Of a stretch of 15,832 nt of DNA, positions 12,671 to 13,037 are shown piece after piece. Position numbers and translations under genes: made by a program. The stretch comes from a virus (lineage: Duplodnaviria > Heunggongvirae > Uroviricota > Caudoviricetes). The stretch lies in the IMG/VR virus record IMGVR_UViG_2675903609_000009; one strand, written 5' to 3'. The notes beneath the pieces were generated by a model. That model saw nothing but the letters and a program-made list of their open reading frames with translations. It ran no database searches and had not been told where the DNA came from. The stretch's first letter is position 1, and each line of letters begins with the position of its first letter.

Positions 12671-12823
12671 TCAGTACATCAAGCCCGTTGATTTATATTC
12701 TCTCGTGGAAAGTAAGAAAAAAGCCGCTCTAATAAGTTCTGGCATTGACGAAAGCGCATCAGCCGCATCATCAGGAACGCCGGAAAATTCCTGTTTCAGG
12801 GAATTAAAACGATCATCACGCAT
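12671..12823 (-). CDS. Hypothetical small protein (50 aa from ATG 12823); start region overlaps a G8 homopolymer
   Basis: ORF begins 5 nt after the upstream gene's stop; the G8 tract 12826..12833 lies immediately 5' of the start. Confidence 0.35.
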   Translation of the reverse strand: MRDDRFNSLKQEFSGVPDDAADALSSMPELIRAAFFLLSTREYKSTGLMY

Positions 12824-13037
12824 AACCCCCCCCATTTTCACAATCGGCAACAAGAATATTTTTAGCGTCATTCAGTGACCGCGTTGCGATGTATCGGATA
12901 CATTCCAGGGCGAACTGTGTCCGGTCTTTCTGTTCTTCTCCCTGCGCAAGCTCTGCCGTGCATTCAATATCAATAAGCGCGTGCATCAGCGTAGTGAGTG
13001 CGGCGGCTGCTGCGTTCGGTGTGGTTTTATTGTGCAT
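12816..13037 (-). CDS. Hypothetical protein (73 aa from ATG 13037)
   Basis: GGGGA Shine-Dalgarno 5-6 nt upstream of ATG 13037; C-terminus ...ENGGGYA encoded across the G8 tract. Confidence 0.45.
   Translation of the reverse strand: MHNKTTPNAAAAALTTLMHALIDIECTAELAQGEEQKDRTQFALECIRYIATRSLNDAKNILVADCENGGGYA

What the first reader, a model, noticed from the sequence alone, without database searches (positions are those of the whole stretch)
12816..12840. G8 homopolymer at the junction of two small ORFs: a 1-nt slip would fuse them
The tract GGGGGGGG (12826..12833, minus-strand sense) encodes the ...ENGGGYA C-terminus of the 73-aa ORF and sits just 5' of the 50-aa ORF start, which is in the +1 frame. 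Loss of one G would fuse the two into a single protein of about 120 aa. This could be a sequencing error hiding one real gene, a slippage-prone switch, or a programmed frameshift site.
Basis: seen in the sequence. Interest (0 to 1): 0.55.

Follow-up and report, generated by a model that had tools for sequence, protein, structure and literature searches.

The report
Slippery poly-G joins two satellite genes
The G8 run is real and heritable: it is the ribosome-binding stretch between two small overlapping genes of a Shigella/E. coli phage satellite, and in nature it varies from G7 to G11, so the genes are separate in some strains (as here) and fused in others, with no sign of a sequencing error or programmed frameshift.

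Summary
The G8 run lies at 12826..12833 (minus sense). A 73-aa ORF ends ...ENGGGYA*, and the next ORF starts in the +1 frame with an 8-nt ATGCGTGA overlap.

The window is a capsid-forming PICI satellite, 99.9% identical to Shigella flexneri. The tract is a length-polymorphic homopolymer:
- In complete E. coli genomes, exact-flank counts are G7 350, G8 130, G9 25 and G10 8.
- In 90 IMG/VR loci the lengths run from G7 to G11, plus interrupted variants. Only 30% are in frame.

G7 and G10 alleles give a fused protein of 144-154 aa, as in O157:H7. G8 and G9 alleles keep two genes, as in CFT073, Nissle, O55:H7 and Shigella.

Both halves are under purifying selection (dN/dS about 0.26), whatever the tract state. 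In distant relatives each half is a stand-alone gene beside unrelated partners, with the same junction of G-rich SD, ATG and overlapping stop. The two-gene form therefore looks canonical, and the fusions look like derived slippage products.

Tract state is stable within clades, so this is not fast phase variation. Nothing supports programmed recoding.

The "50-aa ORF" is a truncated 73-aa gene: a second 1-nt deletion turns a G4 run into G3. The island's capsid gene carries a nonsense codon. The function of the proteins is unknown.

The parts
12826..12833 (-). G8 homopolymer. It encodes the Gly-Gly-Gly near the C-terminus of the N-module and is the Shine-Dalgarno-like stretch 2 nt upstream of the C-module ATG. 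It is length-polymorphic in nature (G7-G11 plus interrupted forms).
12816..13037 (-). N-module gene (ORF1), 73 aa, MHNK...ENGGGYA*. It matches the first half of phrog_2512 and phrog_5146. It is predicted to be a helical hairpin.
12816..12823 (-). ATGCGTGA: the start of the C-module overlaps the stop of the N-module by 8 nt. This is the canonical translational-coupling junction of this operon.
12671..12823 (-). C-module gene (ORF2), truncated here to 50 aa. The intact form is 73-77 aa (phrog_24341).
12684..12686 (-). G3 run where intact alleles have G4. This 1-nt deletion shifts the frame and truncates the C-module.
12603..12683 (-). Out-of-frame remnant of the last 23 codons of the C-module, down to its ancestral TAA at 12603..12605.
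12368..12601 (-). Next small gene of the operon (77 aa, phrog_2196, unknown function).
13027..13227 (-). Icd-like gene (66 aa). Its stop overlaps the N-module start by 11 nt, and a G5 SD lies upstream of that start.
12063..12362 (-). DUF4222 gene, upstream of the D5-type primase (10318..12066).

Best explanation
The G8 run is the G-rich Shine-Dalgarno-like end of one small gene (the N-module, 73 aa). That gene is translationally coupled to the next small gene (the C-module) through an 8-nt ATGCGTGA start/stop overlap. Both lie in the early, replication-side operon of a capsid-forming PICI satellite of Shigella/E. coli.

Because this SD is an uninterrupted run of 7 or more G, replication slippage changes its length over evolutionary time. 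G8, G9 and G11 alleles keep two separate genes. G7 and G10 alleles read through and give an N-C fusion of 144-154 aa, joined by a Gly-Gly(-Gly)-Val linker.

The C-module keeps its own SD and ATG in every state, so both modules can be made whichever state the tract is in. The polymorphism is therefore tolerated and close to neutral. The two-gene state seen in this window is the canonical arrangement, not a broken gene.

In this particular island the C-module is additionally truncated by a separate 1-nt deletion, and the capsid gene carries a nonsense codon. This Shigella copy is therefore probably decaying.

Shown: the anatomy, the polymorphism, stability within clades, purifying selection on both halves, and the stand-alone occurrence of each module. 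Inferred: slippage as the cause, independent translation of the C-module, near-neutrality, and the direction of change (two genes first, fusion derived).
For: Anatomy.

Polymorphism:
- Exact-flank counts in 5426 complete E. coli genomes are G7 350, G8 130, G9 25 and G10 8.
- Ninety IMG/VR loci give G8 34, G7 23, G9 18, G10 4 and G11 2, plus 9 interrupted tracts. In-frame alleles are 27/90, or 30%. Counted by unique haplotype, 21 of 79 are in frame. There is no enrichment of the fused frame.

Recent change: the O55:H7 and O157:H7 islands differ by 8 SNPs and 2 homopolymer indels over 7 kb. One of those indels is the G8/G7 difference, which turns two ORFs (79 + 77 aa) into one of 154 aa.

Mutability:
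- Sequence pairs with identical 400-nt flanks differ in the tract 43% of the time.
- 4 of the 9 haplotypes with more than one member have mixed tract lengths.
- An A8 run in the same loci is A8 in 18 of 19, which argues against generic homopolymer miscalling.

Clade stability: 226 genomes carry G7 and 14 carry G8 within one 200-nt haplotype, and the G8 set contains the O55:H7 strains.

Selection:
- dN/dS is 0.27 for the C half and 0.25 for the N half, against 1.0-2.0 in the off-frames. The values are the same in the in-frame and out-of-frame allele sets.
- ORF2 is intact in 33 of 38 G8 alleles and in all complete G9 alleles.

Modules are autonomous:
- A profile search of 1.84 billion representatives finds mostly proteins of 70-85 aa that match either positions 1 to about 70 or positions 72-143. 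The C-half matches start exactly at the internal Met.
- In their contigs each module sits beside unrelated genes. The junction is the same in all of them: GGAGG or a GGGGG(G) run, then ATG overlapping the upstream stop.

SD role: the anti-SD duplex is -11.1 kcal/mol, the strongest among the operon's starts, and other starts in the operon also use G runs.

Linker: the AlphaFold model, of low confidence, shows two helical hairpins with the Gly residues in the low-confidence stretch (residues 65-95) between them.
Against: - No expression data exist. Separate translation of the C-module and tolerance of the fusion are inferred.
- The region around the junction is the most conserved part of the gene, in both DNA and protein. 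That conservation could reflect a function the neutral reading ignores. It is also partly enforced by the search pattern.
- dN/dS is measured across deep divergences. It cannot show that selection acts while an allele is in the split state.
- Counts are not corrected for phylogeny. The complete-genome set is dominated by the O157 clade.
- Some IMG/VR genomes may come from platforms prone to homopolymer errors.
- PGAP treats a G9 allele as a frameshifted pseudogene.
- The direction of change (two genes ancestral) rests on distant relatives in which the two modules are not adjacent to each other.
Confidence: 0.62

Rival explanations
1. Adaptive contingency locus. The poly-G tract is kept because stochastic switching between the two-protein and fusion-protein forms changes how the satellite deals with helper phages or the host. 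This would be bet-hedging.
For: - The tract is uninterrupted and much more variable than its flanks or than a nearby A8 run.
- All of G7-G11 exist on closely related backgrounds. Within the window's own allele family, at 95% identity or more, there are G7 (P0005), G8 (the window and CFT073), G9 (AF39) and G10 (P0002).
- The junction is the most conserved segment of the gene.
- Poly-G phase variation is documented in another enterobacterium, in Klebsiella rmpA (bioRxiv 10.1101/2025.09.12.675794, abstract seen).
Against: - Tract state is stable within clades, and several Nissle 1917 assemblies all carry G8.
- Nine of the 90 IMG/VR alleles carry an interruption within the run.
- The downstream gene keeps its own start, so there is no clear ON/OFF state.
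- No phenotype is known.
Confidence: 0.15
2. Pseudogenisation. The real gene is the single ORF of 144-154 aa. G8 and G9 alleles, including this window, are loss-of-function frameshift mutants of a dispensable accessory gene.
For: - Intact fused homologues are common and diverse, down to 67% identity.
- PGAP labels the G9 allele 'frameshifted'.
- phrog_2512 is a full-length family.
- This window has a second frameshift in the C half and a nonsense codon in the capsid gene, as expected in a decaying Shigella island.
Against: - Out-of-frame alleles make up about 70% of distinct loci, yet nearly all of them keep both halves intact.
- dN/dS is about 0.26 in both halves and is no higher in the out-of-frame set.
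- Distant relatives carry each half as a separate gene with the same overlapping junction.
- The G8 frame reproduces the ...(H/Y)A* C-terminus and the ATGCnTGA overlap typical of stand-alone N-modules.
Confidence: 0.14
3. Programmed recoding. From G8 alleles a fraction of transcripts (RNA polymerase slippage on the G run) or of ribosomes (a +1 shift on GGG GGG) yields the fused protein alongside the two separate ones.
For: - The run allows perfect tRNA-Gly re-pairing in the +1 frame.
- It is itself SD-like, and SD elements are known to stimulate +1 shifting in prfB (established knowledge).
- The fused product is clearly viable, since G7 and G10 alleles encode it.
Against: - Recoding sites are conserved in length and frame. 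This tract is not.
- No stop or rare codon follows the run directly; the next codons are GGU UAU GCG and only then UGA.
- No significant downstream structure is predicted (z = -0.68).
- Documented transcriptional slippage in E. coli involves A or T runs of about 9 or more (established knowledge), not G8.
Confidence: 0.05
4. Sequencing or assembly error in this window's homopolymer.
For: Homopolymers are error-prone on some platforms. The window also contains masked N runs.
Against: - The same G8 and the same G3 are in an independent S. flexneri chromosome, at 99.89% identity with no gaps.
- The exact ORF1 and ORF2 proteins are on at least 1000 and on 92 contigs respectively.
- G8 is present in 130 complete genomes.
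Confidence: 0.02

Closest known systems
Homopolymer (SSR) contingency loci that switch or fuse reading frames. Examples are poly-G tracts in Neisseria pgtA (PMC2193922), in Helicobacter and Campylobacter, including C-terminal switching and fusion of adjacent ORFs (PMC2823697; cj0031/cj0032 from my own knowledge), and in Klebsiella rmpA (bioRxiv 10.1101/2025.09.12.675794).
   Same: An uninterrupted G run of 7 or more inside coding sequence. Its length is polymorphic among close relatives, and a 1-nt change alters which polypeptides are encoded.
   Different: Here the downstream reading frame has its own SD and ATG, so no state is clearly OFF. The state is stable within clades in an MMR-proficient enterobacterium. 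No phenotype or switching rate is known. The host element is a phage satellite.
Translationally coupled overlapping genes (ATGnnTGA or ATGA junctions with the SD inside the upstream gene), as is typical of phage and satellite operons.
   Same: The G8 allele has exactly this layout. Neighbouring junctions in the operon, and the junctions in distant relatives, have the same design.
   Different: The SD is an unusually long homopolymer, so it is mutationally unstable and can abolish the upstream stop by shifting the frame.
Programmed frameshifting and transcriptional slippage: prfB +1, dnaX -1, IS element A-runs, Shigella mxiE T9 (established knowledge).
   Same: Two overlapping frames joined at a slippery homopolymer. 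A fused product is biologically viable.
   Different: Length and frame are not conserved. There is no adjacent stop or hungry codon and no stimulatory structure. The run is G rather than A or T. No product data exist.
cf-PICI EcCIEDL933 family (bioRxiv 10.1101/2022.09.08.507074).
   Same: The island has int, alpA, a primase and its own capsid, protease, portal, TerS and TerL genes. The O157:H7 island that carries the fused allele has the same int-alpA-icd early-operon layout.
   Different: That paper does not mention frameshifts or homopolymers. The window's copy has a nonsense codon in its capsid gene.

Membership tests
SSR-mediated phase-variable (contingency) locus | A simple-sequence tract inside the coding region or its translation signals | tested here: met
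   The G8 run at 12826..12833 lies within ORF1 and 2 nt upstream of the ORF2 ATG.
SSR-mediated phase-variable (contingency) locus | Tract length differs among closely related strains | tested here: met
   G7-G11 occur. O55:H7 has G8 and O157:H7 has G7 on near-identical islands. 43% of sequence pairs with identical flanks differ in the tract.
SSR-mediated phase-variable (contingency) locus | High-frequency, reversible switching within a clonal population | not testable with these tools
   There are no read-level data. Indirect evidence points against it, because tract state is uniform within clades.
SSR-mediated phase-variable (contingency) locus | Switching turns expression ON/OFF or changes a phenotype | not testable with these tools
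   The function is unknown. The downstream ORF keeps its own SD and ATG in all states.
Programmed ribosomal frameshift site | The out-of-frame arrangement and the slippery motif are conserved across homologues | tested here: not met
   About 30% of alleles are in frame. The tract length varies and is sometimes interrupted.
Programmed ribosomal frameshift site | Stimulatory elements: an adjacent stop or rare codon for +1, or a downstream structure for -1 | tested here: not met
   The codons after the run are GGU UAU GCG UGA. The fold z-score is -0.68. The -1 frame ends after 9 codons (sequence).
Programmed transcriptional slippage | A long A or T run (about 9 or more) of conserved length, with both products made | tested here: not met
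   The run is G8 and its length varies. Whether both products are made could not be tested.
Translationally coupled overlapping gene pair | The downstream start codon overlaps the upstream stop, with the SD inside the upstream gene | tested here: met
   The overlap is ATGCGTGA. The anti-SD duplex is -11.1 kcal/mol. Relatives have the same design.
Translationally coupled overlapping gene pair | Both ORFs are independently conserved coding sequences | tested here: met
   dN/dS is 0.25-0.27 in frame and at least 1 in the off-frames. Stand-alone homologues exist for each half.
Frameshifted pseudogene of a single 144-aa gene | Intact single-ORF homologues exist | tested here: met
   The best 120 hits listed (of 389) are almost all fused proteins of 144-154 aa.
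Frameshifted pseudogene of a single 144-aa gene | Relaxed constraint or further lesions in frameshifted alleles | tested here: inconclusive
   Across alleles this is not met: dN/dS is equal in the two sets and ORF2 is intact in 33 of 38 G8 alleles and in all G9 alleles. In this window it is met: there is a second frameshift and a capsid nonsense codon.
cf-PICI (capsid-forming PICI) | int, alpA and a replication module, plus the island's own capsid, protease, portal and terminase genes, and no tail genes | tested here: met
   Pfam hits for integrase, D5-type primase, capsid, S78 protease, portal, TerS and TerL. AlpA and Icd-like are identified by similarity to annotated islands.

The most novel reading that the evidence does not exclude
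The expanded poly-G Shine-Dalgarno stretch is a maintained evolvability device. By slipping, it toggles a satellite early-operon pair between two free proteins and a tethered fusion. This would alter stoichiometry or partner binding in the satellite-helper-host conflict. A second junction of the same kind exists, an A8 run that can produce triple fusions of 217-221 aa, which would make the operon a modular, slippage-reconfigurable protein set.
Probability: 0.12. Interest if true: 0.6.

Novelty: new member of a known kind. Interest (0 to 1): 0.36.

Why it matters
- Annotation: public annotation handles these loci inconsistently. The same locus appears as two hypothetical proteins, as one hypothetical protein, or as a 'frameshifted' pseudogene. 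The evidence here indicates that the two-gene form is canonical and that the fused form is a common natural variant.
- Biology: this is a clean natural example in E. coli/Shigella of gene fusion and fission driven by slippage in a homopolymeric ribosome-binding site, with hundreds of sampled alleles in both states. It could be used to study how fusion proteins arise and are tolerated.
- Limit: the proteins have no known function, so the biological consequence is open and the finding is of moderate interest.

Tried and rejected
- Counting tract alleles from BLAST identity bands failed because partial alignments contaminated the bands. I replaced this with E-value cut-offs that admit only exact full-length matches.
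- Function searches found nothing informative. Pfam, NCBIfam, PADLOC and PDB sequence profiles gave no hit. PHROGs gave only families of unknown function. tblastn against INPHARED phages gave no match.
- The AlphaFold model was too weak (pLDDT 55) to justify a fold search, so none was run.
- The GTDB species-representative scan returned only one locus, from Shigella. Diversity therefore came from IMG/VR pattern scans and from the representative-protein search.
- RNA folding around the tract showed no significant structure.
- Two literature searches found no mention of this gene or of homopolymer tracts in PICIs.
- One context look-up (P0225) was not on record.
- The metagenome scan was not used, because the other collections gave enough.

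Full report
**1. The observation**

On the minus strand the window reads ...GATTGTGAAAATGGGGGGGGTTATGCGTGATGAT..., with the G8 run at 12826..12833.
- ORF1 (12816..13037, minus strand, 73 aa from its ATG) ends ENGGGYA*.
- ORF2 (12671..12823, minus strand, 50 aa) starts at the ATG 2 nt after the run. It is in the +1 frame and overlaps the ORF1 stop by 8 nt (ATGCGTGA).
- Deleting one G in silico gives a single ORF of 121 aa.

A single G8 run in 15.8 kb is not improbable by chance; shuffles give 0.49 on average. Its reality rests on comparison with other genomes, described below.

**2. Context**

The window is a capsid-forming PICI satellite. It carries an integrase, AlpA, an Icd-like gene, several small ORFs, a DUF4222 gene and a D5-type primase. 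It also carries its own capsid, prohead protease, portal, TerS and TerL genes, and it lies next to phoQ. This matches the EcCIEDL933 family (bioRxiv 10.1101/2022.09.08.507074).

A Shigella flexneri chromosome is 99.89% identical to the window over 6.2 kb with no gaps. The exact ORF1 and ORF2 proteins carry Shigella names in public records. They occur on at least 1000 contigs (the counting cap) and on 92 contigs respectively. The G8 run is therefore not an assembly error of this window.

**3. A second lesion**

Alignment with CFT073 and with strain AF39 shows that ORF2 is normally 73 aa. The window has CAACGGGCTTG where the others have CAACGGGGCTTG. The G3 run is at 12684..12686. This deletion truncates ORF2 to 50 aa.

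The island's major capsid gene also has an in-frame stop codon. This copy of the island appears to be decaying, as is common in Shigella.

**4. The tract is polymorphic**

- A protein search with the in-silico fused sequence returned 389 hits. The 120 best listed are almost all fused E. coli proteins of 144-154 aa, down to 67% identity.
- Their junctions read ENGGVMRD (G7), ENGGGVMRD (G10) or ENGGGMRD.
- Exact-match counts in 5426 complete E. coli genomes, using fixed flanks of 12 and 36 nt, are G7 350, G8 130, G9 25 and G10 8. In total, 655 genomes carry the junction.
- A pattern scan of IMG/VR gave 90 loci: G8 34, G7 23, G9 18, G10 4, G11 2, and interrupted tracts G5TG2 (3), G4TG3 (2), G4AG7 (3) and G8TGG (1).
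- Only 27 of these 90 loci (30%) are in frame. Counted by unique haplotype the figure is 21 of 79, and the G8-type frame is the commonest at 39 of 79.
- In the large protein collection, split-form proteins sit on 912 to at least 1000 contigs each. The commonest fused forms sit on 152-258 contigs.

**5. Tempo**

The O55:H7 CB9615 and O157:H7 TW14359 islands lie at the same site next to roxA. Over 7 kb they differ by 8 SNPs and 2 homopolymer indels. One of the indels is the G8/G7 difference, which converts two annotated ORFs (79 + 77 aa) into one of 154 aa.

Among the sampled loci, sequence pairs with identical 400-nt flanks differ in the tract 43% of the time. Pairs with 1-2 flank differences already differ at least as often as unrelated pairs (88%, against about 75%). 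Of the 9 haplotypes with more than one member, 4 have mixed tract lengths.

An A8 run in the same loci is A8 in 18 of 19. This argues that the G-run variation is biological and not generic homopolymer miscalling.

Tract state is nevertheless stable within clades. Within one 200-nt haplotype, 226 complete genomes carry G7 (O157:H7, O145 and others). Fourteen carry G8: the O55:H7 strains and a few others. Several Nissle 1917 assemblies all carry G8. The tract is therefore a mutational hotspot on an evolutionary timescale. There is no evidence that it is a rapid phase switch.

**6. Both halves are genes**

- Nei-Gojobori dN/dS is 0.27 for the C half and 0.25 for the N half in their own frames, against 1.0-2.0 in the off-frames.
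- The values are the same in the in-frame and out-of-frame allele sets.
- ORF2 is intact in 33 of 38 G8 alleles and in all complete G9 alleles.
- PHROGs contains a full-length family (phrog_2512) and separate families for the N half (phrog_5146) and the C half (phrog_24341). All are of unknown function.

**7. Which state is canonical**

A profile search of 1.84 billion representative proteins found only 55 clusters. Most are proteins of 70-85 aa that match either positions 1 to about 70 or positions 72-143. The C-half matches begin exactly at the internal Met.

In their contigs, distant N-modules are followed by unrelated small genes, and distant C-modules are preceded by unrelated genes. The junction has the same design in all eight contexts examined: GGAGG or a GGGGG(G) run, a few bases, then an ATG that overlaps the upstream stop (cATGCATAA, cATGCGTAG, cATGCCTAA, ATGTATGA, ATGCTTGA or ATGA). 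Stand-alone N-modules end ...HA*, much like the ...YA* end of the G8 frame.

Within the window, the other operon junctions also use G runs as SD. The G8 run has the strongest predicted anti-SD pairing of the operon's starts, at -11.1 kcal/mol.

The G8 allele is therefore the ordinary two-gene, translationally coupled layout. The fused proteins are best read as derived read-through products of slippage in an over-long SD. This reverses the impression given by PGAP, which labels a G9 allele 'frameshifted'.

**8. Mechanism (inferred)**

Replication slippage changes the G-run length. G7 and G10 remove the upstream stop from the frame and tether the two modules through a Gly-Gly(-Gly)-Val linker. 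A low-confidence AlphaFold model (pLDDT 55) places these residues in the poorly predicted stretch between two helical hairpins.

The C-module keeps its own SD and ATG in all states, so both modules can be expressed either way. That explains the absence of any frame preference alongside purifying selection on both halves.

I put this reading at about 0.62. The rivals are an adaptive contingency switch (0.15), pseudogenisation of a single gene (0.14), programmed recoding (0.05) and sequencing error (0.02). The pseudogenisation reading is partly true for this decaying copy.

Recoding lacks its defining signs. Frame and length are not conserved, no stop or hungry codon adjoins the run, and no structure is predicted (z = -0.68).

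**9. What is unknown**

The proteins have no detectable relatives of known function or structure. No literature on them was found. No expression or switching-rate data can be obtained with these tools.

**10. Verdict**

The feature is a new example of a known kind: a homopolymer-driven frame polymorphism, here in the ribosome-binding site between two coupled satellite genes. Interest is moderate (0.36). It gives a useful annotation correction and a neat natural fusion/fission system, but the function is unknown and there is no evidence of regulated switching.

Noticed in passing
window 12684..12686 (minus strand): A second 1-nt deletion, in a G4 run that is G3 here, truncates the C-module from 73 to 50 aa. 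The same truncated allele also occurs with a G10 tract (P0097, ...GGGVMRDD...STGLMY). The tract has therefore changed on this background too.
   Followed up: partly
window 7755..8960 (minus strand); stop codon at 8085..8087: The cf-PICI major capsid gene is interrupted by an in-frame stop (...KNAV*VVNST...). The ORF list shows it as two adjacent same-frame ORFs of 291 and 109 aa, both of which hit Pfam Phage_capsid. This copy of the island is probably defective.
   Followed up: partly
window 4531..4540 (+), next to N run 4541..4671: A G10 run is the longest homopolymer in the window. It directly abuts a masked N stretch, inside or just upstream of the terS reading frame (4198..5043, minus strand). 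Its true length and context cannot be read. Further N runs lie at 5635..5706 and 9328..9450.
   Followed up: no
L002 (CFT073) 2975..2982: CFT073-type islands carry an extra upstream 76-aa ORF, which is joined to the N-module by an A8 run followed by a GGAGGGG SD. A7 alleles give triple-fusion proteins of 217-221 aa (P0001, P0031 and others). The A run is A8 in 18 of 19 IMG/VR loci, so it is far more stable than the G run.
   Followed up: partly
L004 1541 versus L005 (O55:H7 versus O157:H7): The only other indel between these two islands is also in a homopolymer: T8 versus T7 just downstream of the integrase gene.
   Followed up: no
alignment A2/A3 columns for ...ILIADCENGG(G)VMRDDRFNSLKQEFSG; window about 12770..12860: The junction region is the most conserved part of the gene, in both protein and DNA. 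Nucleotide diversity there is 0.08-0.14 against 0.25-0.40 elsewhere. The N-terminal halves upstream of it fall into two very different sequence types. This suggests mosaic recombination around a conserved hinge. The dip is partly an ascertainment effect of the search pattern.
   Followed up: partly
L096 437..664: In a distant relative the N-module is followed directly by a homologue of the window's ORF3 (77 aa, 12368..12601), with no C-module. The small genes of this operon therefore shuffle as independent modules.
   Followed up: partly
L050 and L079 (same IMG/VR contig 2740892233_000016): One contig of about 14 kb holds two copies of the junction with different tract lengths (G8 and G7). Several complete genomes carry two islands in different states, for example strain 100248 (G8 and G9) and strain JB2 (G9 and G10).
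   Followed up: no
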